Source: Trypanosoma brucei
Lineage: Eukaryota
Assembly: GCA_000002445.1 (NCBI GenBank)
Contig: CH464491.1
Location: forward strand, 1,952,001-2,016,000
Direction of reading: 5' to 3'
Length of the DNA stretch: 64,000 bases
Shown here: piece after piece, positions 3,788-51,566 of the stretch
Position numbering within the stretch: the stretch's first letter is position 1
How the letters are laid out: the number at the start of each line of letters is the position of its first letter
Translations under genes and position numbers: made by a program
Notes under the pieces: generated by a model
Told to the model about the DNA's origin: nothing
What the model saw: only the letters and a program-made list of their open reading frames with translations
Database searches by the model: none

Positions 3788-4133
3788 CCATTAACACTAC
3801 CCTCCCACTTCTACACAAATTAAAGTGAGGTAAAACAATAAGGTAAGTTACGCAAACATGCAAGCGCGAGCCGCCTTCGTTTCATTTTTCCGCGACTTAT
3901 AGGCGATTGCAGCTTCCACTCTATTATAGCTCACCCCCACCATGCATTCCCGTTTTTTTCGATATTATTAACGTAGAGAGGTACTGCAATAACCGAGTTA
4001 AAGGTTAAAAAACGAAACGTTTCAAATTGTGTGGTCTAACCTGTCGCCTCCTTGGTGAAGTGCATCGGTGCTGTACTGCAAGGACAAAAAAAAAAAAAGA
4101 AAAATACTCACGATCGCTATCATTGCCTTCTAT

Positions 4134-4805: not shown

Positions 4806-5030
4806 TCATCGCCGTCTGCCTTTACTCACACGAGTGTCTGAACTACAGAGAATGGGTGAATCTCCTTCTATGAGCTGCTTTAGCGCTAGAAGCTCCTTCT
4901 CGTCCTCCACCATCTGTCGCAAAGTATCCTGCAGTCGATTCATCTCAACCTCCAGGAGTTCCATTTCATTCTCCAAGTGGTCCGCGAGCGCCCGCACGGC
5001 CGCACCGGTTTCTCTGGGTTCCACATGCAT
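4806..5030 (-). CDS. Small hypothetical coiled-coil protein (74 aa)
   Basis: The ORF starts at ATG. It shows heptad-like repeats of E, L and M (LENEMELLEVEMNRLQDTL). It sits in a gap between two confident genes. I recognise no family. Confidence 0.25.
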   Translation of the reverse strand: MHVEPRETGAAVRALADHLENEMELLEVEMNRLQDTLRQMVEDEKELLALKQLIEGDSPILCSSDTRVSKGRRR

Positions 5031-6458: not shown

Positions 6459-7286
6459 CTTGTCCAGCCCCTCAGTAAAAATTCCCAATTCTTCAAACTT
6501 TGTGTATCGTATCTGTTATCCAAATCTCAACTTCTGCCCACTTTCAACATGCTACACACCCCATTGTACACATATGAAAAAGAGGGGAGCGCACCAAAGA
6601 GGAGTGAAAAAGTGACTGAATAAGCAGAAAAGGGCAAAACACGGTACACTCAGTCAAGGACTATGACCAACGGACAAATAACACACACAACATCCTCTTC
6701 ACCATTTCTGTTGCAATTCCCTAAATTTTCCGTTACTTCTCCCTGGAAGAGAAGCTCATACCCACGTACTAAAAGCAAAAAAAAAAATAATAAGAATGGA
6801 CGACAACTCACACGAAATACCTGCCACAAGTCGAAACTGACCCATCTCGAAAAAAAAAGGCAGGTGATGTTGAAAGATAAGCCACAACGCCACCCCGAAT
6901 ACAACCTCGTGCCATTACAAACATTTACTACAAATATCAAACGATAAGAGCCCTCCGGCGAAACATAATAATGAAAAAGAGAATGAACAGCGACAAAATG
7001 GTCGAGTAACAACACCAACTAAAAAAAAGCTAATCACTATCCCCACAATGACCAGTAGGAAAATTAAATGTGGGAAAACGAATGAGCCAGAAGCGACACA
7101 TTTGATAGTTTAAAAACGAAACTGAAGAAAAAAAAATACAACAAACGGAACCAGTACAGCAAACAAAAGATAAAAAAAAAATAGCACCACTCAAAAATAA
7201 TAGTAATAATAATATTGTTTAACGGTCGAAAGCACTTTATTAGCAACCATAAAGAAAAACACTTTTCTTAATGGTGCCTCAACCCC

Positions 7287-8531
7287 TCACAGTTCTCCCC
7301 TCTTGTTCACCTTGAGCAAGTTATGCCACATGTTGTGAGACTCATCAATCACCTTCATTGCGTATTCCTTGTCCTTGAATTCACCATCGAAAGCAAAATG
7401 GCTCGCTTCACCACCCTGACAAATCTTGTACACACGGAACCACTCACGGATGGCATCAAGACATCCAGGAAGGAACTTCGGTACGTCATGGATGTCTTTC
7501 ATGAAACGACATATAGGATCGTTGTGGGATATGCAAACAACTTTCCAATCCATCTTGCCCTCGTCAATCATTCCAAGCACACCTAGCACTTTTACTGCAC
7601 TCACCTGACCGACTTTGAATTGCGTCATCCCGATCTCAACAGCATCTACGGGGTCATTGTCACCAGTCACCCCAGCCTCGAATAACACCTCTGTGCTCTC
7701 CCATGTCTGTGGAAACGCACCATAGTTCCACATCATATCACCATGCTTGTAGAACCGAGGTACGCCATTCTTGATATCCTGCTTTATGGGATTAAATGAC
7801 TCTCCAGTCGCGATCTCAAACTTTGCGCGCGTCCACTTAGGGATCTCACAGATGAAATTGTAGCGATTCATTGGTGTCGCCTCGGGCTTTGTTCGCACAA
7901 GATCACGTACATACAGCGGGATGTCATGCCACGGCGATACCTGCCGCTCCCTACCGGTTTCCAAATCCCTGAAGAAGTACAGTACGCGGTAGCTGGGTGT
8001 GTACATTTCACCTTTCTCGTGCACAACCAACTGCTGCTGGTGATACGGCATGGAGAAATCGGCAGACACCATCGAGAAACATTTCGTCCTGGAATGTACA
8101 GGATGGGAACACCACCACGCCCAAAACTTCTCAAATGTCACGTGACCATCGATAGCATTGATTTCAGCTTTCATGGCCTTCACATCCCCATCGCTCATGT
8201 TACGGCCCAAGTACCTGCATACCTCTTCCACTTTGTCAGGCGTGAGGTAGCCAAGATGCGTCACATCGAATGCTGAGAATAATCGACTCATGATCTTTTT
8301 GATCATTGGTTGAGTGAAATCATCCTTATCGTAGGCGGCAAGATCCAGTTCGCTCACCTTCCGGTCAACCGCCTCCTGAATAGGCTCTGCGACGTCGGCC
8401 TCAGAACCCCTGCCGGTACTTATGTTGGTACCAAGTGATGCCGAGAAAGGCAGCCCCGCCACTTCGGCAGAAGCCAAATCTTGGGGAGACGTTCGATCAC
8501 TGCGCGAATCCACACCGTGTGTGTTGTTCAT
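7287..8531 (-). CDS. VSP1: Soluble inorganic pyrophosphatase with N-terminal EF-hand domain (acidocalcisomal VSP type), copy A
   Basis: The family I PPase core reads DPVDAVEIG...KVLGVLGMIDEG..DWKV. An N-terminal EF-hand region reads DKDDFTQPMIKKIMSRLFSAFD. Length is 414 aa from the first ATG; the track ORF starts at GTG 8546. The copy at 12121..13365 is near-identical. Confidence 0.85.
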   Translation of the reverse strand: MNNTHGVDSRSDRTSPQDLASAEVAGLPFSASLGTNISTGRGSEADVAEPIQEAVDRKVSELDLAAYDKDDFTQPMIKKIMSRLFSAFDVTHLGYLTPDKVEEVCRYLGRNMSDGDVKAMKAEINAIDGHVTFEKFWAWWCSHPVHSRTKCFSMVSADFSMPYHQQQLVVHEKGEMYTPSYRVLYFFRDLETGRERQVSPWHDIPLYVRDLVRTKPEATPMNRYNFICEIPKWTRAKFEIATGESFNPIKQDIKNGVPRFYKHGDMMWNYGAFPQTWESTEVLFEAGVTGDNDPVDAVEIGMTQFKVGQVSAVKVLGVLGMIDEGKMDWKVVCISHNDPICRFMKDIHDVPKFLPGCLDAIREWFRVYKICQGGEASHFAFDGEFKDKEYAMKVIDESHNMWHNLLKVNKRGEL

Positions 8532-8674
8532 ATCTACAGTTGGCACTTTAAAAGGCGGAAGAGGGAAAGCAATCGATTAAAACACAAAGTACATAGAAAC
8601 AACGACATATTCCGGCGTGATAGTTGTATCGCATACCAACTTCTTCCACTCCAAAATACTCGCAGCTTAGACAC

Positions 8675-8765
8675 TCAAATGCTTTGCTTAGCGATGCTTA
8701 ACGCTGCCTGCATGCGCGCCAGAGTTCTTCTTCTGCTGTCGACCTCACTGGCTAGGCACACCCGA
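8675..8765 (-). pseudogene. Orphan 3'-terminal fragment (about 87 nt plus stop) of the gene at 13509..13943, carried by the duplication
   Basis: Sequence identical to the last codons (…SEVDSRRRTLARMQAALSIAKQSI*) of 13509..13943, but with no upstream ORF continuation in copy A. Confidence 0.6.
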
Positions 8766-9898
8766 GTGGTAATATCGGTTGTTGTAACAAATGGAGTGGA
8801 AATTTCTTTAACCGTTACCAGTTAGTTGTCCCCTTCCTCACCATTACGCACCAAAGTCAGCTAACTATACCGTGTGGAGCAAATGAACTGACAAATAAAT
8901 GGAAGGTAAGCACTGATATAGAACAGTGAACCGTACTATCATTATAGGATGGCGTTCACCCACCGCGGTTCCACGGCGGCACCAACCTCTCTTCAGCCAT
9001 AACAAAATTCAAACTCACGAAGGTAATAACGTAGCTAGCTAAACATCTATGTTGTGCCAAGCCATTCACTGGCAGCTGAGGTGCTTCCCAGTAACGCGTG
9101 AGCCTCGTTGGTTTTCTTGGCTCAGCACCCTTTCGCGTAAGAGGTCTTGCAACCCAAATTGTCACCTTCAACTCCGAATACAGGAACATACCAGCGTGTG
9201 GTGCAAACCCACCATCTCAAGAGAAGAAAGGTGACTTCCCGAGTAATCTGGAGAGCAGACACCCTGAGAGAGATTATGCCACTTGACAGCTGCATCAGAA
9301 TAGCCACATGGCGCCAGCACACTCATGGGAGATTTGTGGTTATAATTGATATGCAAGACTGCCATCCCGGAGGAAACCGTTCGACCAGTGTCTGCATCTG
9401 CCGCAACCCACCATGTCCCGCAAACCGTTCACTGCATGCCACACTCCTCCACACAGCGTGGCGTTCTAACGCATGATACAGGGTTGATTTCGGACGGACA
9501 AGCGTACAAAAAAGAGATACGTTGAACGATGAAGATGGACCGCAGCTCCAGTGATGTACTGTCAGTGTCAGTGTCAGTTCTGTTGGCTGACGGTAACGGG
9601 TCAGTACAGCACTGTAATGTTGGCTTCCCTCCATCTGATCTTGTGGGTCCTCATCAGGTATTTGAAAGAGTCGAGCTTGTCGTGCTCATTAAAGGTCGTC
9701 ATGGGTAGAAAGAAGTGATGGACGCAGCACACTAAGCAAAACGCCAACGAGCTGGAGAGGCCATCAACACGCTCTCTCGGTCTTCCTACGTACACACTAA
9801 ATAACACAGGACAGCCAGTAGAAAAGCAACGGGCACTTAACCGTGAGTCTTTGGAGTTAACGCCTGGTAGTCGGTTAACCTCCATTACTAAGCACCCG

Positions 9899-11551
9899 TC
9901 AATATGCACATTTAGCACCTGAAACCTCACGCAGCGCATCTACGGACGAAAAATCGCCCCCCAAAAGCAGCTCCTCCACCTGCTCCATTCTCCCAGGAAG
10001 AAAAGGTACTTCCACTGCCTCACACACTTGCTGCACTGTACGCCCTGACTGTGGTGGGTACAACAGAACGACATGGCCCTCCTTCCCCATCCGCCCGGTG
10101 CGTCCCGCACAGTGAACAAATACAGAAGCTGGTGGGCATTCACCAAAGAGGATAACGTGTGTAACTTCATTTATGTGTATCCCACGACTAAGACTGTGGC
10201 TACTCACACCAACCAGTAGTAACCCTGTGTTCAACTTTTCGATAGAGCTGTTGTCCTTCACATAAACGTCCCCTTTACTTCTGCAAATGCGTTTTGGTTT
10301 TCCCTTTTCCGGGTCGAGTAACGTCTCTAATGGTGCTGCGATCTCCCGTTTGCCATTCCACCGTAACCACTTTTGTACCTCTGGGCTAGTGCTCTTCAGA
10401 GTATTTAATTGGTTAGTGACACTCCCCACCTCTTCCTGGGTTGTAAAAAGAAGTACACGCGGATTCGCCTCCTGTTTACATATTAACCGTAATATGAGTT
10501 CAAGAGAACGAGGGAGCGGATATGAGCGAGACTCCGAATAAAAGTAAAAGCTGATTGTTTGAGGAATAGTGTGCTCTACGAAGCTGGTAGTAAGCCTAAC
10601 TGCTTTGTCATTTCGCATCCACATATTAAGAGCCTGCGCCGTACGACCATCTATAGTCGCACTGGCTGCAACAATCTGAGCGGGAACCTCTTCACGACGG
10701 CTACGAAACAAGCGATCAACCAAGTTAATCCCACTGATGTGTTGCCGACCAAATCGGATGTTTCCAAATAAAACAATGTCGGCTTCATCCAAAATAACGC
10801 AGTCCACCTTTCGCCGCAGTTTCTCCCCAAGCAAGGTTGGACTGAAACGTAGCACATCGGCAACTCGCTGCGGGGTTCCCACCAACACATGAGGTTGAAT
10901 GTTATGTAGCTTGGCCAACTGCACTTCAAGCGTTATACTCTCGATAGCAACTTGAACAACCTGTTGAGTGGAGCCACAAAAATGGCGCAACCACTTGTCA
11001 TATTGAAGAGCCAATTCCTGAGTTGGGACAATAATGACAGTGTGAAGACGATAATTGATATTTTCACGAATTATTCGATTGGCACAGGCAAGTGCGATAC
11101 CAAAACTCTTTCCCGTCCCGGTTTCCGCGTGAGCGATGACATGTTTACCCTTCAGTAAGAGAGGAATGAGAGCTCCTTGTAACTCTGTGAGACGCCCGAT
11201 CCCCAGCTTCTTCAGCGCCACAACGAGTGAAATACATAATCCGGCCCCACGCGGAGCCGTTTGCGAAAAGAACAAGGGATGCGCCTCGTTGTTATTAGCT
11301 ATGTTCGCCGTCGTTGGACTTAACATTTGCGCAGAACCAAGTCGAAGTTGCACTGTCCTATGCCTCTGGGAGGCACCTGAATCCCGCGTCGCATCACGCG
11401 CGTAGAAAAACTTCTGGGATGGTGGAAGGTTAGCCGCATGCGCCTCACCACCCTGTCTCATATAGTCATCGAGAAGTGAACCAGCCGAACCGCCATACGC
11501 CGCCCGGGAACCCTTCAAATACTTCAGATATCGCACCCCAAAGGTTTTCAT
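9899..11551 (-). CDS. ATP-dependent DEAD-box RNA helicase
   Basis: Motif I AETGTGKS, motif II VILDEAD, motif III SAT, motif VI HCAGRTGRMG. The first ATG is at 11551; the track starts at GTG 11581. Confidence 0.8.
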   Translation of the reverse strand: MKTFGVRYLKYLKGSRAAYGGSAGSLLDDYMRQGGEAHAANLPPSQKFFYARDATRDSGASQRHRTVQLRLGSAQMLSPTTANIANNNEAHPLFFSQTAPRGAGLCISLVVALKKLGIGRLTELQGALIPLLLKGKHVIAHAETGTGKSFGIALACANRIIRENINYRLHTVIIVPTQELALQYDKWLRHFCGSTQQVVQVAIESITLEVQLAKLHNIQPHVLVGTPQRVADVLRFSPTLLGEKLRRKVDCVILDEADIVLFGNIRFGRQHISGINLVDRLFRSRREEVPAQIVAASATIDGRTAQALNMWMRNDKAVRLTTSFVEHTIPQTISFYFYSESRSYPLPRSLELILRLICKQEANPRVLLFTTQEEVGSVTNQLNTLKSTSPEVQKWLRWNGKREIAAPLETLLDPEKGKPKRICRSKGDVYVKDNSSIEKLNTGLLLVGVSSHSLSRGIHINEVTHVILFGECPPASVFVHCAGRTGRMGKEGHVVLLYPPQSGRTVQQVCEAVEVPFLPGRMEQVEELLLGGDFSSVDALREVSGAKCAY

Positions 11552-12110
11552 TAACGTTAGGCGGGTAAGCGAGGACGACACCTAAATGCATATAGCAAAA
11601 AAAAATACTAAAATCAAAGCAGACACTGAATATAAGGTAAGCTGTGATGGGGGGGGGGAGTCCAAGACTCCTTAAAAGTTACCGCATCCAACAGCATACG
11701 GTATTCAACACAAGCTAATTAATTGAAATGCTAAGCTCGAATTCAGCATGGAAATAAGTTAATCAAACAATATAACCTCAATAAATTTATGTATGTACAT
11801 GTATACCAAACAGCAAACCTCATAAAGAAAGTTTCCCTGTCAGCTGAACGTGTACAACAACTCGCAAAAAGGGAAACTACACACTGTCAACGGTGTCATC
11901 ACCCATCGCCGGAAAAAAAAAATTACACCATTAGTAGGGAAAATAATCGAAAATGGGAGTGTGGGAGGGGAAGCCGGGGCAAAACGAAGACACTAGTAGA
12001 AAAAAAACACATACCCCAACTACAACACAAATTATAACCAACAACAGCATGAGTTGAAGTGATACCGACAGCCCAACCAAGCATCCGTAAATATATCTAT
12101 TAAACAACTG

Positions 12111-13599
12111 TGTCAACCCCTCACAGTTCTCCCCTCTTGTTCACCTTGAGCAAGTTATGCCACATGTTGTGAGACTCATCAATCACCTTCATTGCGTATT
12201 CCTTGTCCTTGAATTCACCATCGAAAGCAAAATGGCTCGCTTCACCACCCTGACAAATCTTGTACACACGGAACCACTCACGGATGGCATCAAGACATCC
12301 AGGAAGGAACTTCGGTACGTCATGGATGTCTCTCAAGAAGTGACATATAGGATCGCTGTGGGATATGCAAACAACTTTCCAATCCATTTCGCCCTCGTCA
12401 ATCATTCCAAGCACACCTAGCACTTTTACTGCACTCACCTGACCGACTTTGAATTGCGTCATCCCGATCTCAACAGCATCTACGGGGTCATTGTCACCAG
12501 TCACACCAGCCTCGAATAACACCTCTGTGCTCTCCCATGTCTGTGGAAACGCACCATAGTTCCACATCATATCACCATGCTTGTAGAACCGAGGTACGCC
12601 ATTCTTGATATCCTGCTTTATGGGATTAAATGACTCTCCAGTCGCGATCTCAAACTTTGCGCGCGTCCACTTAGGGATCTCACAGATGAAATTGTAGCGA
12701 TTCATTGGTGTCGCCTCGGGCTTTGTTCGCACAAGATCACGTACATACAGCGGGATGTCATGCCACGGCGATACCTGCCGCTCCCTACCGGTTTCCAAAT
12801 CCCTGAAGAAGTACAGTACGCGGTAGCTGGGTGTGTACATTTCACCTTTCTCGTGCACAACCAACTGCTGCTGGTGATACGGCATGGAGAAATCGGCAGA
12901 CACCATCGAGAAACATTTCGTCCTGGAATGTACAGGATGGGAACACCACCACGCCCAAAACTTCTCAAATGTCACGTGACCATCGATAGCATTGATTTCA
13001 GCTTTCATGGCCTTCACATCCCCATCGCTCATGTTACGGCCCAAGTACCTGCATACCTCTTCCACTTTGTCAGGCGTGAGGTAGCCAAGATGCGTCACAT
13101 CGAATGCTGAGAATAATCGACTCATGATCTTTTTGATCATTGGTTGAGTGAAATCATCCTTGTCGTAGGCGGCAAGATCCAGTTCGCTCACCTTCCGGTC
13201 AACCGCCTCCTGAATAGGCTCTGCGACGTCGGCCTCAGAACCCCTGCCGGTACTTATGTTGGTACCATGCAATGCCGAGACAGGCAGCCCCGCCACTTCG
13301 GCAGAAGCCAAATCTTGGGGAGACGTTCGATCACTGCGCGAATCCACACCGTGTGTGTTGTTCATATCTACAGTTGGCACTTTAAAAGGCGGAAGAGGGA
13401 AAGCAATTGATTAAAACACAAAGTACATAGAAACAACGACATATTCCGGCGTGATAATTGTATCGCATACCAACTTCTTCCACTCCAAAATACTCGCAGC
13501 TTAGACACTCAAATGCTTTGCTTAGCGATGCTTAACGCTGCCTGCATGCGCGCCAGAGTTCTTCTTCTGCTGTCGACCTCACTGGCTAGATACGCACGC
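12111..13599. repeat. Segmental duplication unit B (about 1.49 kb)
   Basis: Partner of 7277..8765, about 4.83 kb away in direct orientation. It includes the 3' end of CDS 13509..13943. Confidence 0.85.
12121..13365 (-). CDS. VSP1: Soluble inorganic pyrophosphatase with N-terminal EF-hand domain (VSP type), copy B
   Basis: Near-identical to 7287..8531. It differs at a handful of residues in two small patches (PFSASLG vs PVSALHG; GKMD..HND..CRFMK vs GEMD..HSD..CHFLR). Confidence 0.85.
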   Translation of the reverse strand: MNNTHGVDSRSDRTSPQDLASAEVAGLPVSALHGTNISTGRGSEADVAEPIQEAVDRKVSELDLAAYDKDDFTQPMIKKIMSRLFSAFDVTHLGYLTPDKVEEVCRYLGRNMSDGDVKAMKAEINAIDGHVTFEKFWAWWCSHPVHSRTKCFSMVSADFSMPYHQQQLVVHEKGEMYTPSYRVLYFFRDLETGRERQVSPWHDIPLYVRDLVRTKPEATPMNRYNFICEIPKWTRAKFEIATGESFNPIKQDIKNGVPRFYKHGDMMWNYGAFPQTWESTEVLFEAGVTGDNDPVDAVEIGMTQFKVGQVSAVKVLGVLGMIDEGEMDWKVVCISHSDPICHFLRDIHDVPKFLPGCLDAIREWFRVYKICQGGEASHFAFDGEFKDKEYAMKVIDESHNMWHNLLKVNKRGEL

Positions 13600-13943
13600 A
13601 ATGCAACTCGAGCACACTGTAAGTTTTTTGCGCGAATTTCACTCTGCAGCAGTGCCACATGGCGGCCAAGTGCAATAACTTTCTGTTGAGTCGCAAAGGA
13701 AGCGGTGACAGCGCTATCCTCATCCACCGGCGTAGTTGTTACCTCGACAACTTGCACAAAGAGTTCTCTGAGCTCCCTTGTTCTCTCCAGAAGTTGTGAT
13801 ACGGTGGCCAACGCTCCCTGTTCCACGTGGTTTGCATCTTCACATCCATTTTTGTCCTTACCACTGTAGTTGTGATTCCGTGACATGAGTGCAACGTTCC
13901 GGAGCACCTCCGGGATGTGTTGCCACCGCAACTCTTCGGACAT
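13509..13943 (-). CDS. Hypothetical protein (144 aa)
   Basis: ATG-initiated ORF with a charged, helical-looking composition. Its last ~29 codons and stop lie inside the duplicated VSP repeat unit. The overlapping 216-aa ORF (13739..14389) has implausible composition and is rejected. Confidence 0.4.
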   Translation of the reverse strand: MSEELRWQHIPEVLRNVALMSRNHNYSGKDKNGCEDANHVEQGALATVSQLLERTRELRELFVQVVEVTTTPVDEDSAVTASFATQQKVIALGRHVALLQSEIRAKNLQCARVALRAYLASEVDSRRRTLARMQAALSIAKQSI

Positions 13944-46436: not shown

Positions 46437-47612
46437 TTACACAAGTCGTGTCAGACGCGCAACCACGCTATCAACAAGTCCCAGGACTACGAACAAGCCA
46501 CCAATTATTCCACAGAGTTGCACCAAAAAGTGGTATATCGGTTCTCGTTTGAAATTATTGTTCACCTGCATTGGAAAAAAATCGAAGGAAAACTCGACAG
46601 AAGGAAAACCACCATAGCCAATAGCCACTTCACGGGAATTCCAGTTTGCGCTGTATTCATATGTCGGGGGGTGGAGGCCAGATGAAGCGCCACTTCCGTA
46701 GGTGGTAGGCACTATGTTCAAATAATACCTGACCTTCATGAATCTTCCACTGCCGTTAAATCGTTGTTTCTCCAGTGGATTTAAAACACCTCGGCGAGAA
46801 TGACGTCTTACGCTTTCGTCCCCAATAGAAAATTTATTTATCACATGACTTGCATCAAATTTCAAAAGGTCCTCCATCTTGATTGTGTTTTTGATGACCT
46901 TTGGAGTGAAAAATATAACGCCACTCACTTTTCTTACATTCAAGGCACCCCTGTAATTACAGCCGGGGTTTTCCAGAGATAGTTCACCGATGCATTGCTC
47001 GACCACATTTTTATTCGGCCTCGGCAGTCCTTTTCTATCGTGTTCGGCCATAACTTCTTCGCAAGTGTTGCAGCAATTCTTACCTCCAGCGATGGCTTTA
47101 TTACCAGTAAAACACCTTCCGCAAAAGTCGGGGGAGTTGGGGTCATTTCTCCTAGTATATAAAGGGCTCCTGGGGTCTGTGAAAAAGCGTCGGGTGCCCA
47201 AATAGGCAAGATTTCCCCCTACATCCACGGGAGTTTTTAACAGGTTTTCCGTAACATTAATACTAAAAGTTCCGCTAACATCACTCACATCGAGGAAAAG
47301 ATCGTGACACGGCTCTTGCATGAATGTAATGTCAATATTAAAAGTGATATTCTTCTCAGGGCTGGTATCCACTGATAGTTCCGTCTTGTAGGCATTCCAA
47401 CCTAAAGTGTAGGACATAACTTCCCACGATGCAAGAAGCCCAACCGCAAAAACTGTTATAATGCTAATAATAGCACCAGCTCGGGTCTGGGATCGGCAAT
47501 AATCCTCCTTTGGTTTCGTGAAAAGGTCTACAGCTGCAACTTTCCGAAGCAAAAAGGACGACGGAACTGGCTCGTCGTCGCTTTCGCTGCTGCGTTTCCG
47601 GAGGCCTATCAT
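46437..47612 (-). CDS. ERGIC3/Erv46-family ER-Golgi vesicle transporter protein
   Basis: N-terminal DLFTKPKEDY...TRAGAIISIITVF transmembrane segment, a Cys-rich lumenal CGRC...CCNTCEEV block, and a C-terminal transmembrane segment IIGGLFVVLGLV. Confidence 0.7.
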   Translation of the reverse strand: MIGLRKRSSESDDEPVPSSFLLRKVAAVDLFTKPKEDYCRSQTRAGAIISIITVFAVGLLASWEVMSYTLGWNAYKTELSVDTSPEKNITFNIDITFMQEPCHDLFLDVSDVSGTFSINVTENLLKTPVDVGGNLAYLGTRRFFTDPRSPLYTRRNDPNSPDFCGRCFTGNKAIAGGKNCCNTCEEVMAEHDRKGLPRPNKNVVEQCIGELSLENPGCNYRGALNVRKVSGVIFFTPKVIKNTIKMEDLLKFDASHVINKFSIGDESVRRHSRRGVLNPLEKQRFNGSGRFMKVRYYLNIVPTTYGSGASSGLHPPTYEYSANWNSREVAIGYGGFPSVEFSFDFFPMQVNNNFKREPIYHFLVQLCGIIGGLFVVLGLVDSVVARLTRLV

Positions 47613-50600
47613 TGAAATAAGTTATACGGCTGTTTCTTCATACATTGAAAAGGAAGAAAGCACTCGGTGCTGCTGTCAGTAGAAGCAGAAAATGAACGCA
47701 GAGCCACAAGGGGCTACTTGCAGACACCTCATGGCATTGATGCTAAAGTGTCTCAACAGCGTGACCGCATCTGAATAAGACATTACTCCTGGTAGTTACA
47801 CATTCCATCCCAAATCAAAATACAAACACGTGGAGTGGAAGGGAAGGGGAGGAGCACAAGAACAAACTGCGATCATGCCCGTAGAGAGGTCTTGGAGGGC
47901 AGGATAACTCGCTGACGATCGAATCTGCGCCATCCGCCAGAATAAGGCAATTCAACAAACACATGTAAGATTCCGCAAAAAAGATTACAGCGCTAAATGT
48001 TTACGTGCAGCGGCCCCTACAATTCTCTTGGGTCATTGACAGCACCTAGACTTCTCTTGTCAGCCACTCAGGCACATTTGTCCCCACCTTGTTTCCTTCA
48101 GGTGAGATATTTTTTTCACTTGTCCCCCCTACTCTGGAGCAACATTTGTTGCGCGGGTGTAACTCCCAAACTTTAGAACTCCCCACTGAAATTCATTACA
48201 CTGCAGTAGACATTCACCAGGATCACGACCGACCACCACGACGAAGCACACAACAAGGTGCTAGCTGGTGCTTATGATGTCATCCCGCCTTTGAGCACTC
48301 GATGCACACTCTTACTTTGGCGACTACGGGCTGCTTTTGAATAGTATTCGCTGTCTTTTAAAATACTAGGTGCTTGGCGGACCAAAGAGCTTTTTTTCTT
48401 TGGTGAAAGGGGGGTCAGACTGAAGAGGGGCCCACCGTTCATCCTCCCCCTAACACCATGGAAAAAGTTAATCACCATACAAGGTTTAACACCCTCTTTC
48501 AACAAGCCTTCTCCGTGGTTCATGGCGCTTTATCCGCAGTAGAGCTGACCGCACCCACGCGCACGCCGTTGGGAGTTATTTCCCCCTCTTGCTGGTCCTC
48601 GAATAAAAAGCATACCACGAAATCGGATAAACCCTGCTTTCGCTGGAGAATCAGCGGGCATTCCAGCGTACTCGATGCTAACTCAGGTGGTTGGCGACCC
48701 GTTAAGGAGGAAAGGCAACAACATCAGCTTTGGGGTTTGATAAGAGCGCCCACGCGACCTTCAGCACGTGCAGATGCGCTTTCTGGGATACCTGCAGTGT
48801 GTTTCCGTTTTTGAGCTCACTGTCCGAACTAGACACGTGCCCAACTTCATATGGATCGCGCAGGAGACCTGGTGTTCTCTCAAAGCCAAAGAGGGTGGCA
48901 TCGGCAAAACACCCGTACAATTAAAAATCTAGCCTTGCCATCGTGTCCACAGCTCCCTTGTGTGCGGAGGAGAGCAAACTCACGAGGATATCTTAATATC
49001 CGAGCAAGCGGCTGCTCCAAAGTGTAAAGAATACCGATACTTCTGGGTAATCGTATAGCGTCCGGCAACGTCGACAGGCGCTGTTTCCATCTCAGATAAT
49101 GCCTGTTGAGCTCATGATCGGAGACTGGTTGCGTTTGAACCTTGGTCCCGTGCGTTTCCTGTGGCCGTTAACCGTCATCCGACCACCGCTGGCGTGCCGT
49201 CTTCATAGGGGAACTCTTCATAACAGGGAATGCGCACAAAAAAGGAAAAAAAGCACAAAGAAACACCGAGGACGGCGGGAAGGTGTAGGCAGAGCGATTG
49301 CCATATCCTGGCGGATTTGTCAGGACGTCAGGTATTTCATCTAGAGCCGCGGTGTTAACGTTCCAGGGAAATGGAAAAAGGACGGAGTAATTCGAGGGAA
49401 CGGGGGGAGCCCCACGTCGGTACAGAAGAAGGAGCGTGGCAATAGAAGGTGCATCCATGTCGCTTGCAGGTGTTGCCACAAAAGAGTCAGGAAAGGGGGA
49501 AGAGAATGACGGTGTTTAGCGATTCATCATCCCCTCTAATTGGCGTAAAAGCTGCCCCCTGAGGTAAATGGGAGTACCTTGCAACACGCACGGAGAAGCA
49601 CAGCATAATTAACCGGAGGATGAATGCCTTTAGACCTGCAAAGGACCAAAAGCGGAAAGAGGAAGAAAAGTAACTTGGAGAGGGCGCCGTTTTCGAAATA
49701 CGCCAAATCAACCTCGTGTTTTGTATTCGCAGTGCCACGCGGTACAACCCCTTAAGCCGTCTGAACCGAGATTCTGAATCAATCTCAAGTGAAAGGTAGG
49801 AGCATTTCTGCCCCCTCGTAGCGGTTGTGGGGAAGGGGAGTGCCATCCCGAAATGCAGGTGGCGTGCCGTCAAACCCTACGAAACACGGTGTAGTAGTTC
49901 CCAAGGTACCTGTTCATTCTCCCTTAGTGACTCTCGACACTAGTGCTTTTAAGGCGTCACCACCCGGCGATCCTCTTCTTTTGTGCTACGCTGTGCGGTC
50001 AGACCTAGTAAGAATCGCGAACCCCGCGATGAATAAGCGTCTACAGGAAAAGGAAAGGAAAAGAAAAACGGCAGGGACTGTGATAATCGCACCGTTAGAG
50101 TGCCAACAGCGCGTGAATCAACTATAGTTGCCATGCCTCTGAGAAGAAGTTTGAGTAACGGAAGCTGCTGTTGAGATTCATGGACTTGTCGCGGGTGATC
50201 GCACCCCTCATGTACAGTTCTGGGTTGAAAAGAGAGTGAGAGGAGGGCAAGGCGAAGCAGATAGGCTTGATTTTCCCCGCGGCTCGTTTATTATTCCTTT
50301 TTCCTTCGCATTGCACCGGTAAGAACCCCGAAGGTAGCATTACATTTTCCCTGCTGCAGGGGCATGTGCTGCCGGTTGAGTCGAGCGTTGCATCGGGCTG
50401 TCTCACCGAGCCAAATGGTGTGGGTGTGCCACCACCTCTTCTCCGAGGAGTGGAGTTCCTAAGCATCGCCCATCCGGCTGGCCCCAGAAATATTATTTCA
50501 GTCTTTTAGGTTACAGTGGTGAAGTGCCACCCGAGCTCATATTGGCCGAACCGTAGGCGGAAGGGGAATTGTGAACTTTCATGGCCCTCTCTTTTTTTTT

Positions 50601-51566
50601 TCCTTGGTGACCGCCGCCTTCCCTGAGCCCTCTCTGATTGGGGGGAGCGGAAGGGGATCCCGCCGGTTTCATCTCCGTCGTTGGAGAGTTACTTCCCCGG
50701 CCCCTTCGATCGATGTTTCCTCGTCCGTTTCTTTGGTTTATCGCACCTGTGTGGACGGGTTGTTGGTTTCTGGTACTTCGTCTTTTGATGTTCGAGCACG
50801 CCCTTTAACCTCTAGGTTGGACTCCTTCGACGCACGCATGTTCTTCCACAGTGCGGGCGCCGAGGTTTTTTTGTTTTGGCACCCCTTCTACCTGCGTGTA
50901 CAGCCAACGTGGATCAGCTGGTGGACACAGTTGGCCTCCGGGCGCGTCCTCTTTTAGCGGTATTCTCTGAAGGCGGGTGGTTAAGACTCATTTTTTATTT
51001 GTGCCGCTGTTACTTCAATGTGATCCTGACGCATCGTGCATCTGCTTTGTTTGTGCTAGCTGATCGTTGCCACTGTTGGTTTGTTGCTGTCCCTATGTTG
51101 TTGTCTCTTACAGGGTGTGGTGGTAGTGTTTGCTTTACGTTCGTATGGTGAATGCCTTCTACGATGTTTTGATTTCCGGACGTTTTGGGTCTTTGGTTTT
51201 GTTAGTGTTTAGTGTTGACAAAGTTGTTAACGTTGGTGCTGCAGCCGACGTGGGACTGTGTGGGCCGTCGGTACTATTGGTGTGTGTAGCTCTCCCTCTT
51301 GGCTTCGTTTCAACAGCCCTTTCACGTAGCAGGTAACGTGGTTGCTGTACCTTTGAGATGTATATATATATATATTGGAAAGAATTGTCCTACAAAAGGG
51401 ACAAGGGCAGCTGATTTACTTGAAGTAGAGAGGGTCGTTGGGAAGAGGGTTGTTTGGCTTCATTCTCCCAGATTAGCTAATTGGCGACAAAACGCAGTTT
51501 GCTACCATCTTTTTTGCTCTGCCTTTTCATGTTCTCCTACACTCTATAAAGCTGTTGCTAAACGCG
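47613..51566. promoter_or_regulatory. Divergent strand-switch region (probable RNA pol II bidirectional transcription start region)
   Basis: All genes below 47612 are on the minus strand and all genes above 51567 are on the plus strand. The intervening 3.9 kb has no ORF longer than 130 aa. Confidence 0.7.
50570..51360 (+). promoter_or_regulatory. GT-rich tract upstream of the first plus-strand gene
   Basis: The plus strand is strongly G+T-biased, for example gtgtggtggtagtgtttgctttacgttcgtatggtg...ggtctttggttttgttagtgtttagtgttg, and ends in a (TA)8 repeat. Confidence 0.4.

What the first reader, a model, noticed from the sequence alone, without database searches (positions are those of the whole stretch)
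7277..13599. Near-identical 1.49 kb segmental duplication of the EF-hand pyrophosphatase (VSP) gene, bracketing a DEAD-box helicase gene
Two directly oriented copies (7277-8765 and 12111-13599) are almost base-for-base identical across the whole CDS and about 230 bp of upstream flank, yet the 3.3 kb between them (helicase gene) is single-copy. The few amino-acid differences fall in two tight patches rather than being scattered. That pattern suggests gene conversion with patchy tracts, or a recent duplication followed by local selection. Such repeats are assembly-collapse hotspots, and true copy number could exceed two.
Basis: seen in the sequence. Interest (0 to 1): 0.55.

Follow-up and report, generated by a model that had tools for sequence, protein, structure and literature searches.

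The report
Known duplicated trypanosome pyrophosphatase gene pair
The two near-identical copies are the already annotated and published pair of Trypanosoma brucei acidocalcisomal pyrophosphatase (VSP1) genes flanking a helicase gene: an old duplication kept almost identical by gene conversion, so real but ordinary.

Summary
A direct repeat of 1477 bp (7279-8755 and 12113-13589) has 15 mismatches, no gaps and 98.98% identity. It is the only long repeat in the window. It brackets a single-copy 3357-bp spacer that holds a DEAD-box helicase gene. All genes lie on the minus strand. The window is T. brucei brucei TREU927 chromosome 11. The copies are Tb11.02.4910 and Tb11.02.4930 (VSP1), described in the literature as tandemly linked, almost identical in coding sequence, with divergent 3' UTRs and reciprocal life-cycle regulation.

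T. vivax shares the derived order VSP-helicase-VSP, and T. congolense does so in part. T. cruzi, T. grayi and Leptomonas have one VSP. Copies are 99-99.7% identical within a species but 71-75% identical between species.

Across three T. brucei-group assemblies, all 11 patch differences are fixed between the two copies. Every other variable site is either private to one copy or shared across both. The upstream (bloodstream-enriched) copy carries derived residues at otherwise invariant positions.

I found no sign of more than two copies. Novelty is low, because the pair is known and the mechanism is typical of trypanosome gene arrays.

The parts
7279..8755 (-). Repeat copy 1, the downstream copy in the direction of transcription. 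It sits at the ancestral position next to the PA-domain gene.
   Evidence: 1477 bp, 98.98% identical to 12113-13589, ungapped.
12113..13589 (-). Repeat copy 2, the upstream copy, lying between the 144-aa gene and the helicase.
7287..8531 (-). VSP1 CDS copy 1 (414 aa plus stop). It corresponds to Tb11.02.4910 / XP_828778.1 / Q384W5 and is identical to T. b. gambiense CBH17681.1. This is the procyclic-enriched isoform.
   Evidence: The identifier mapping comes from the table in PMC3022644. Regulation comes from PMC3344917.
12121..13365 (-). VSP1 CDS copy 2 (414 aa plus stop). It corresponds to XP_828780.1 / EAN79668.1 / Q384W3. Assignment to Tb11.02.4930 is by elimination and accession order. 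This is the bloodstream-enriched isoform.
   Evidence: PMC2771046; PMC3344917.
9899..11551 (-). DEAD-box helicase CDS (550 aa counted from the ATG), single copy, lying between the two VSP genes.
   Evidence: PF00270 1e-25, PF00271. (550-aa gene called in T. b. gambiense). (71% identical to the T. cruzi orthologue).
8434..8447 (-). N-terminal patch in copy 1 (13268-13281 in copy 2). It has 4 nucleotide differences giving F29V, S32L and L33H, in the unconserved N-terminal extension.
7498..7556 (-). C-terminal patch in copy 1 (12332-12390 in copy 2). It has 7 nucleotide differences giving K326E, N337S, R342H, M344L and K345R, inside the pyrophosphatase domain.
13509..13943 (-). Conserved 144-aa hypothetical gene immediately upstream of VSP copy 2. 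Its last 26 codons and stop codon (13509-13589) lie inside the repeat.
   Evidence: tblastn to the T. cruzi, T. theileri and T. grayi 143-147-aa genes that precede VSP, E 1e-19 to 1e-23. (called as a gene in T. b. gambiense).
8675..8755 (-). Non-functional relic of the last 26 codons plus stop of the 144-aa gene, upstream of VSP copy 1. It is 100% identical to 13509-13589.
   Evidence: No significant similarity beyond 8755.
8546..8569 (-). Polypyrimidine tract followed by the first AG. This is the predicted trans-splice acceptor, about 14 nt before the ATG, and is shared by both copies (13380-13403 in copy 2). It is an inference from the sequence only.
6489..7278 (-). Unique 3' flank (3' UTR and intergenic region) of copy 1. 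It is unrelated to that of copy 2.
   Evidence: no similarity.
11552..12112 (-). Unique 3' flank (3' UTR and intergenic region) of copy 2.

Best explanation
The repeat is the known pair of paralogous VSP1 (acidocalcisomal or vacuolar soluble pyrophosphatase) genes of T. brucei chromosome 11.

The duplication is old. In an ancestor of the salivarian trypanosomes, the block [147-aa gene + VSP] came to lie on both sides of the DEAD-box helicase gene. The leucine-rich-repeat (LRR) gene and most of the 147-aa gene at the original site were lost.

Since then, recurrent non-reciprocal recombination (interlocus gene conversion) between the two copies, 4.8 kb apart, has kept the coding sequence and 224 bp of 5' flank almost identical within each species, while the gene diverged between species.

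In T. brucei, homology and therefore conversion stop 8 bp after the stop codon. Each copy thus has its own 3' UTR. In trypanosomes the 3' UTR is where stage-specific expression is set, and the downstream copy is procyclic-enriched while the upstream copy is bloodstream-enriched.

Two short patches escape homogenisation and are stable paralogue-specific differences. The C-terminal patch of the bloodstream copy carries derived residues at otherwise conserved positions of the enzyme.

Shown here: the repeat, its limits, synteny, clustering by species, and the site patterns. Taken from the literature: the reciprocal regulation. Inferred: the order of the rearrangement steps, that conversion is the homogenising mechanism, and that selection protects the patches.
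For: Identity of the locus:
- Copy 1 is XP_828778.1 / Q384W5 and copy 2 is XP_828780.1, both from T. b. brucei TREU927.
- Both match the PDB entries 5C5V and 5CUY.

Published description:
- Protein log2 procyclic/bloodstream ratios are +2.0 and -4.1 (PMC3344917).

Age of the duplication:
- T. cruzi (four assemblies), T. grayi and Leptomonas have the order PUA-DEAD-LRR-147aa-VSP-PA with a single VSP.
- T. brucei, T. b. gambiense and T. vivax share the order PUA-144aa-VSP-DEAD-VSP-PA.
- The T. congolense contig begins upstream of DEAD with a copy of the VSP 3' flank (alignment score 94 against shuffles of 20 +/- 2.6).
- The LRR gene has no relic in the window, and no salivarian protein appeared among its homologues.

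Concerted evolution:
- Within-species repeats are 98.7% (T. b. gambiense), 99.0% (T. b. brucei) and 99.4% (T. vivax) identical.
- CDS identity between species is 71-75%, and paralogues cluster by species with 100% bootstrap.
- Tract limits differ between species: -224 to +8 in T. brucei and -209 to +118 in T. vivax.

Ongoing exchange within T. brucei (six sequences from three assemblies):
- Sites -136, -37 and -6 differ between lineages but are the same in both copies of a lineage.
- Sites -218, the 3-bp indel at -203, and +1192 separate the copies in T. b. gambiense and in the third assembly, but are homogenised in TREU927.
- The +1217 polymorphism occurs in both paralogues.

Patches:
- All 11 patch sites are paralogue-specific in all three assemblies.
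- None of the 4 non-patch differences in TREU927 is shared with the other assemblies (11/11 versus 0/4; hand-calculated 1/C(15,4) = 7e-4, not a tool result).
- Divergence inside the patches is pS 0.21 and pN 0.13. Elsewhere it is pS 0.008 and pN 0.
- Copy 2 is derived at N337S, R342H and K345R, where the other species aligned keep N (T. vivax G), R and K.
Against: - Gene conversion is inferred from patterns. No conversion event was observed directly.
- Orthology of the two positions across species rests on gene order alone. Intergenic flanks are too diverged to align between species.
- The upstream T. congolense copy is not on the contig.
- The haploid consensus assemblies of diploid genomes may mix alleles, so some 'private' differences could be allelic.
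- The T. b. gambiense assembly was ordered against TREU927 (PMC2854126).
- That selection protects the patches is not shown. pN/pS inside the patches is 0.61, not above 1. A high local mismatch density could by itself block conversion there.
Confidence: 0.85

Rival explanations
1. The duplication is recent and specific to the T. brucei lineage. The copies are similar simply because little time has passed, and the patches are newly selected mutations.
For: Identity is 99% with sharply bounded ends. VSP does duplicate independently elsewhere, as shown by the three tandem copies in T. theileri.
Against: T. vivax has the same derived gene order, including loss of the LRR gene, and T. congolense has it in part. 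T. vivax has its own pair at 99.4% identity. Patch divergence (11 of 75 nt, pS 0.21) is about 25 times the synonymous divergence in the rest of the CDS. Polymorphisms are shared across the paralogues in three T. brucei-group assemblies.
Confidence: 0.06
2. The duplication is an assembly artefact: a single gene, or two alleles, was mis-assembled as two loci. Conversely, an array of more than two units was collapsed.
For: Near-identical repeats do break or confuse assemblies of relatives. The T. congolense contig ends at the repeat. The T. equiperdum OVI gene models are chimeric fragments. One copy in GCA_003543875.1 has a 1-bp gap at a polymorphic site.
Against: Three T. brucei-group assemblies (TREU927, DAL972, GCA_003543875.1) and a T. 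vivax assembly all show exactly two copies, with a unique helicase between them and unrelated 3' flanks. Both protein variants were cloned and crystallised. Published proteomics detects unique peptides of each copy with opposite regulation (PMC3344917).
Confidence: 0.03
3. The patches are not selected. They are neutral islands that conversion fails to cross, because mismatch repair rejects heteroduplex with dense mismatches, or they were imported once from a diverged donor.
For: Synonymous and non-synonymous changes cluster together, and three codons carry two hits each. pN/pS inside the patches is 0.61. The N-terminal patch lies in an unconserved region. T. vivax copies also differ mainly in that region.
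Against: The C-terminal patch changes are asymmetric. Copy 2 alone has replaced residues that the other species aligned keep: R342 and K345 in all of them, N337 in all but T. vivax (G). No third VSP-like donor is present in the window or in the T. brucei members of the protein cluster.
Confidence: 0.4

Closest known systems
TbVSP1 gene pair, Tb11.02.4910 / Tb11.02.4930 (current IDs Tb927.11.7060 / Tb927.11.7080), as described by Jensen et al. 2009 (PMC2771046), Urbaniak et al. 2012 (PMC3344917) and Huang et al. 2014 (PMC4263762)
   Same: It is the same locus. The proteins are identical to the TREU927 records. The coding regions are almost identical, the 3' UTRs diverge, and regulation between bloodstream and procyclic stages is reciprocal.
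   Different: Nothing differs at the level of the object. The papers found here do not discuss the exact tract limits, the salivarian age of the rearrangement, the concerted evolution, or the fixed patches.
Concerted evolution of tandem gene arrays in T. brucei (Jackson 2007, PMC1855330; T. b. gambiense genome paper, PMC2854126)
   Same: Paralogues cluster by species, there are mosaic site patterns between T. b. brucei and T. b. gambiense, and the UTRs have histories different from the CDS.
   Different: Jackson's text does not mention the pyrophosphatase pair. According to the T. b. gambiense genome paper, his arrays were those with more than 3 copies. In his examples, copies separated by unrelated genes and carrying unique UTRs tended to keep cross-species orthology. 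Here two copies separated by a helicase gene and carrying unrelated 3' UTRs are still homogenised.
Phosphoglycerate kinase PGKB/PGKC of T. brucei (stage-regulated linked paralogues, cited alongside VSP1 in PMC3344917)
   Same: Linked paralogues are expressed in opposite life-cycle stages. From my own knowledge of the field, not tested here, this is generally attributed to their different 3' UTRs.
   Different: The PGK isoforms differ in targeting sequences and cellular location. The two VSP1 isoforms differ by only 8 residues, and no functional difference is known.
Family I soluble inorganic pyrophosphatases (PF00719; yeast PPase structures such as 1E6A)
   Same: The catalytic domain at residues 227-402 matches. 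Yeast PPase aligns over residues 196-406 at E 1e-58.
   Different: VSP1 has an N-terminal extension and an EF-hand-like domain. According to PMC5507929 it forms a tetramer.

Membership tests
Kinetoplastid acidocalcisomal/vacuolar soluble pyrophosphatase (VSP1) | Family I inorganic pyrophosphatase catalytic domain | tested here: met
   PF00719 at 2.5e-42 and 4.6e-42, 144-145 bits against a cut-off of 23.5, for both copies.
Kinetoplastid acidocalcisomal/vacuolar soluble pyrophosphatase (VSP1) | N-terminal EF-hand pair domain | tested here: inconclusive
   PF13499 scores 21 bits, below the 30-bit cut-off. There are weak calmodulin matches over residues 69-138. The domain is present in the full-length crystal structure 5CUY, to which the protein is about 98% identical.
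Kinetoplastid acidocalcisomal/vacuolar soluble pyrophosphatase (VSP1) | Sequence identity with the experimentally characterised TbVSP1 | tested here: met
   Copy 1 equals 5C5V over residues 73-414. Copy 2 differs from 5CUY at one residue (L404R). Both are in one 90% cluster with AAP74702.
Kinetoplastid acidocalcisomal/vacuolar soluble pyrophosphatase (VSP1) | Localisation to acidocalcisomes, with pyrophosphatase and short-chain polyphosphatase activity | not testable with these tools
   Literature only: PMC4263762 and PMC3022644.
Concerted evolution by interlocus gene conversion | The duplication predates speciation, yet paralogues group by species | tested here: met
   The derived gene order is shared by T. 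brucei, T. vivax and, in part, T. congolense. The NJ tree gives 100% bootstrap for species clusters, with 99-99.7% identity within species against 71-75% between.
Concerted evolution by interlocus gene conversion | Polymorphisms shared between paralogues, or lineage-specific states present in both copies | tested here: met
   Sites -136, -37, -6 and +1217, plus homogenisation of -218, the -203 indel and +1192 in TREU927.
Concerted evolution by interlocus gene conversion | Abrupt limits of high identity, with unrelated flanks | tested here: met
   Identity falls from about 100% to background at 7279 and 8755. No similarity between flanks in sensitive BLASTN.
Concerted evolution by interlocus gene conversion | Direct observation of a conversion event (donor, recipient, tract) in a pedigree or clone | not testable with these tools
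   This needs phased population or experimental data. The mosaic AAP74702 could be such a product or a PCR chimera.
DEAD-box RNA helicase (spacer gene) | DEAD/DEAH helicase core and the C-terminal helicase domain | tested here: met
   PF00270 at 1e-25 and PF00271 at 3e-7. The orthologue occupies the same syntenic block in all trypanosomatids examined.
Assembly artefact | The repeat is absent from independent assemblies or data types | tested here: not met
   Two copies are present in TREU927, DAL972, GCA_003543875.1 and T. vivax. Both isoforms are seen as cloned proteins and by proteomics.

The most novel reading that the evidence does not exclude
The two patches, above all codons 326-345, are islands actively protected from an otherwise efficient gene-conversion process, because they encode a functional difference between a bloodstream-form and a procyclic-form VSP1 isoenzyme. 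The bloodstream copy has E326 and carries S337, H342 and R345 where other trypanosomatids keep N, R and K. From memory of yeast PPase numbering, residue 326 lies between two catalytic aspartates. On this reading the pair would be a compact natural example of sub-functionalisation at both the regulatory level (3' UTR) and the protein level, maintained against concerted evolution since before the split of the T. brucei subspecies.
Probability: 0.35. Interest if true: 0.4.

Novelty: already known. Interest (0 to 1): 0.2.

Why it matters
VSP1 is reported to be essential for virulence and is a drug target; that statement comes from my own knowledge of the literature and was not checked here. It therefore matters that there are two stage-specific isoforms, differing at 8 residues, when interpreting knock-downs, structures and inhibitor work. 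The two deposited structures correspond to different isoforms, 5C5V to copy 1 and 5CUY to copy 2.

The locus is also a tidy textbook case. Conversion keeps coding sequences uniform while unrelated 3' UTRs allow opposite developmental regulation, in an organism without gene-specific promoters.

None of this changes current understanding. The pair, its near-identity, its divergent 3' UTRs and its reciprocal regulation are published, and concerted evolution of linked duplicates is well documented in T. brucei.

Tried and rejected
1. I looked for residual homology beyond the repeat ends. A global alignment of the upstream flanks and a sensitive BLASTN of all four flanks against each other and against the T. 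congolense and T. vivax flanks gave only short low-complexity hits. The apparent tblastn extension of the 144-aa-gene relic to 8806 adds about 3 identities in 17 residues and contains a stop codon, so I rejected it.

2. I looked for a relic of the LRR gene between the helicase and copy 1. There was no tblastn hit.

3. I ran an AlphaFold model from the 17-sequence alignment to place the patch residues. Mean pLDDT was 40.5, so the model is unusable and I discarded it.

4. I tried to read the structural paper on TbVSP1 (Jamwal 2015) to map the patches onto the interfaces. It is not held in the library.

5. Rfam and tRNA scans of the window found nothing, so no non-coding RNA gene explains the conserved 5' flank.

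6. I considered positive selection as the sole cause of the patches. pN/pS is 0.61 inside the patches and 0.42 overall, so the classical signal is absent.

7. I considered pseudogenisation of the procyclic-type copy in T. equiperdum. The lesions are a 1-bp gap at a polymorphic site and chimeric gene fragments, which look at least as much like assembly errors. I did not pursue this.


Full report
**Observation.** A self-comparison of the region gives one ungapped direct repeat, 7279-8755 versus 12113-13589. It is 1477 bp long, with 15 mismatches and 98.98% identity, at an offset of 4834 bp. Identity collapses to background within a few bases at both ends. This is the only repeat of at least 100 bp in the 64-kb window.

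All genes here are on the minus strand. Read in the direction of transcription, each unit consists of:
- 224 bp of 5' flank;
- a 414-codon ORF starting at the ATG (8531 and 13365);
- only 8 bp beyond the stop codon.

The 3357-bp spacer carries a DEAD-box helicase gene with PF00270 and PF00271.

Thirteen mismatches lie in the CDS. They give eight amino-acid changes in two patches: F29V, S32L and L33H in one, and K326E, N337S, R342H, M344L and K345R in the other. There are also two isolated synonymous changes. The clustering is far beyond chance: 7 of 15 mismatches within 60 bp (p = 1.5e-4) and 11 of 15 within two 60-bp windows (p < 5e-5).

**What it is.** The proteins are exact matches to T. 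brucei brucei TREU927 records. Copy 1 is XP_828778.1 / Q384W5 and is also identical to a T. b. gambiense protein. Copy 2 is XP_828780.1 / Q384W3. Both carry the family I pyrophosphatase domain and match the crystal structures of 'acidocalcisomal pyrophosphatase'. 5C5V equals copy 1 over residues 73-414, and 5CUY is copy 2 with one change.

The table in PMC3022644 equates Q384W5 with Tb11.02.4910. Copy 2 is therefore Tb11.02.4930, by elimination and accession order. The current identifiers are Tb927.11.7060 and Tb927.11.7080 (PMC4263762).

The pair is explicitly described in the literature:
- SILAC proteomics distinguished the two proteins by unique peptides and found log2 procyclic/bloodstream ratios of +2.0 for Tb11.02.4910 and -4.1 for Tb11.02.4930 (PMC3344917).

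The object is therefore already known, as is the key functional point that the homology stops right after the stop codon.

**Testing gene conversion against recent duplication.** I fetched the orthologous loci. In the direction of transcription the gene orders are:
- T. cruzi (four assemblies), T. grayi and Leptomonas pyrrhocoris: PUA - DEAD helicase - LRR protein - 143-189-aa ORF - VSP - PA-domain protein (not called in Leptomonas) - pterin-4a - Rad51, with a single VSP.
- T. theileri: the same order, but with three tandem VSP genes.
- T. b. brucei, T. b. gambiense, a third T. brucei-group assembly (GCA_003543875.1) and T. vivax: PUA - 144-aa ORF - VSP - DEAD - VSP - PA, with no LRR gene.
- T. 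congolense: the contig starts just upstream of DEAD with an 85-bp diverged copy of the VSP 3' flank (score 94 against shuffles of 20 +/- 2.6), then DEAD - VSP - PA. The contig evidently broke at the upstream copy.

The LRR gene has no relic in the window. In a protein search that recovered stercorarian homologues down to 35-46% identity, no T. brucei, T. congolense or T. vivax protein appeared.

The T. brucei 144-aa ORF is the orthologue of the small gene that precedes VSP elsewhere (tblastn E 1e-19 to 1e-23). Its last 26 codons and stop codon lie inside the repeat. An exact 81-bp relic of it therefore sits upstream of copy 1 at 8675-8755.

The simplest reading is inferred, not shown. In a salivarian ancestor the block [small gene + VSP] was copied to the other side of the helicase. 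A deletion then removed the LRR gene and most of the small gene at the original site.

Against this old, shared rearrangement the copies are nearly identical within each species:
- T. b. gambiense: 98.7% over the same 1477 bp.
- T. vivax: 99.4% over 1572 bp, spanning -209 to +118 relative to the CDS.

CDS identity between species is only 71-75%. A neighbour-joining tree groups the paralogues by species with 100% bootstrap. This is the signature of concerted evolution. Independent duplications into the same unusual arrangement, each accompanied by loss of the LRR gene, are much less parsimonious.

**Exchange within T. brucei.** I aligned six repeat units: two copies from each of TREU927, DAL972 and GCA_003543875.1. 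The site patterns fall into two classes.

- Patch sites. All 11 patch positions (+85, +95, +96, +98; +976, +978, +1010, +1025, +1026, +1030, +1034) are paralogue-specific in all three lineages.
- Non-patch sites. None of the other 13 variable positions is consistently paralogue-specific.
  - Three (-136, -37, -6) differ between lineages but are the same in both copies of a lineage.
  - Three (-218, a 3-bp indel at -203, and +1192) separate the copies in DAL972 and the third assembly but are homogenised in TREU927.
  - The +1217 (L404/R404) polymorphism occurs in both paralogues.
  - The four non-patch differences within TREU927 are all private to its copy 1.

So the 15 TREU927 differences split 11/11 (old, shared with the other assemblies) against 0/4. 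I calculated this by hand as 1/C(15,4) = 7e-4; it is not a tool result.

Conversion has therefore acted on both outer parts of the unit since the T. brucei subspecies diverged, but has not erased the patches. Inside the patches divergence is pS 0.21 and pN 0.13. Outside them it is pS 0.008 and pN 0.

Compared with other species, copy 1 keeps the ancestral N337, R342 and K345. Copy 2, the bloodstream-enriched isoform, has S, H and R at positions where the other species aligned keep N (T. vivax G), R and K, and has E326 where the others have Q.

This asymmetry suggests functional divergence or relaxed constraint in copy 2. Whether selection or a simple mismatch barrier keeps the patches is open, since pN/pS is 0.61 and not above 1. 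The N-terminal patch lies in an unconserved extension, and T. vivax copies also differ mainly there.

**How it most likely works.** The steps and their basis are:
- Repeated non-reciprocal recombination between two direct repeats 4.8 kb apart homogenises the CDS and the 5' flank. The 5' flank contains a polypyrimidine tract and the first AG, about 14 nt before the ATG. I take this to be the trans-splice acceptor, inferred from the sequence only.
- Homology ends 8 bp after the stop codon, so the 3' UTRs cannot be converted and have no detectable similarity.
- In trypanosomes, which lack gene-specific promoters, 3' UTRs set mRNA stability. This is established knowledge and fits the published reciprocal regulation.
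- The 3' flank of copy 1 has three UAUUUUUU motifs against one in copy 2. From memory, this motif has been linked to procyclic expression. I treat it as a weak lead only.

**Copy number and artefact.** Three T. brucei-group assemblies and T. vivax show exactly two copies with a unique gene between them. Both variants exist as cloned proteins, and both are detected by proteomics. I could not examine read depth.

- The T. congolense contig breaks at the repeat.
- The T. equiperdum OVI gene models are chimeric fragments.
- GCA_003543875.1 has a 1-bp gap at a polymorphic site of its downstream copy.

The originally cloned TbVSP1 (AAP74702) combines the N-terminal patch of copy 2 with the C-terminal patch of copy 1. 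It is either a natural conversion product or a PCR chimera.

**Comparison with what is known, and verdict.** The locus is the known VSP1 pair. The mechanism is the concerted evolution documented for T. brucei gene arrays (PMC1855330, PMC2854126). Those papers do not mention this pair. In their examples, copies separated by unrelated genes and carrying unique UTRs tended to escape homogenisation, whereas here they do not.

What this analysis adds is modest:
- exact tract limits;
- the salivarian age of the rearrangement, with loss of the LRR gene;
- species-level concerted evolution;
- the finding that the two patches are fixed paralogue-specific islands, with derived residues in the bloodstream isoform.

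A specialist would not be surprised. Interest is 0.2 and the novelty class is 'already known'.

Noticed in passing
L008 5293-11248 (T. theileri): There are three tandem VSP genes (410, 418 and 415 aa; 94-97.5% nucleotide identity) at the ancestral position after the 147-aa gene. This is an amplification independent of the salivarian one.
   Followed up: partly
window 8756-9898; L004 8062-9099 (T. cruzi LRR gene): T. cruzi, T. grayi, T. theileri and Leptomonas have a 345-aa LRR-protein gene between the helicase and the small ORF. It has no relic in the window. No T. brucei, T. congolense or T. vivax homologue appeared in the protein search, so it was apparently lost in Salivaria along with the rearrangement.
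   Followed up: partly
L002 1-85 versus 3822-3907 (T. congolense): The contig begins with a diverged copy (about 87%) of the VSP 3' flank just upstream of the helicase. The assembly evidently broke at the upstream VSP copy. In T. congolense and T. vivax the copies still share about 110-130 bp of 3' flank, unlike in T. brucei.
   Followed up: partly
L012 12611-14083 (GCA_003543875.1, T. brucei group): The downstream (procyclic-type) VSP copy has a 1-bp deletion exactly at polymorphic site +1192, and no gene was called there. This is either a consensus error or a real frameshift. From memory, this assembly is T. equiperdum, which has no insect stage.
   Followed up: partly
P0123 and P0124 (T. 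equiperdum OVI, SCU70806/SCU70807): There are two fragmentary gene models. One has the copy-1 N-terminal patch with the copy-2 C-terminal patch and is then truncated. The other starts at the copy-1 C-terminal patch. Together they look like a collapsed or chimeric assembly of the two copies.
   Followed up: no
P0126 (AAP74702.1, originally cloned TbVSP1): This is a mosaic of the copy-2 N-terminal patch and the copy-1 C-terminal patch, plus R411M. It is either a natural inter-copy conversion product in another strain or a PCR chimera. The two PDB entries also represent different isoforms: 5C5V is copy 1 and 5CUY is copy-2-like.
   Followed up: partly
L003 5779 (T. vivax upstream VSP copy): A single-base indel at +244 splits the upstream copy into 89-aa and 311-aa gene models. 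It is probably an assembly error but could be a pseudogene.
   Followed up: no
window 13509-13943 (-): A conserved 144-aa hypothetical gene with no Pfam domain always sits immediately upstream of VSP in trypanosomatids. Its C-terminal 26 codons are co-homogenised with a non-coding relic at 8675-8755.
   Followed up: partly
window about 47600-51500: ORFs switch from the minus to the plus strand and the GC skew changes sign. This is probably a divergent strand-switch region between two polycistronic units.
   Followed up: no
L009 1-132 versus 4842-4977 (T. grayi): A 132-bp segment at the contig edge is repeated, at 96% identity, at the 3' end of the LRR gene and the start of the region before the 143-aa ORF. 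Its significance is unknown.
   Followed up: no
window 6489-7278 versus 11552-12112 (-): The 3' flank of the procyclic-enriched copy has three UAUUUUUU motifs, at +104, +149 and +498. The flank of the bloodstream-enriched copy has one, near the next gene.
   Followed up: no
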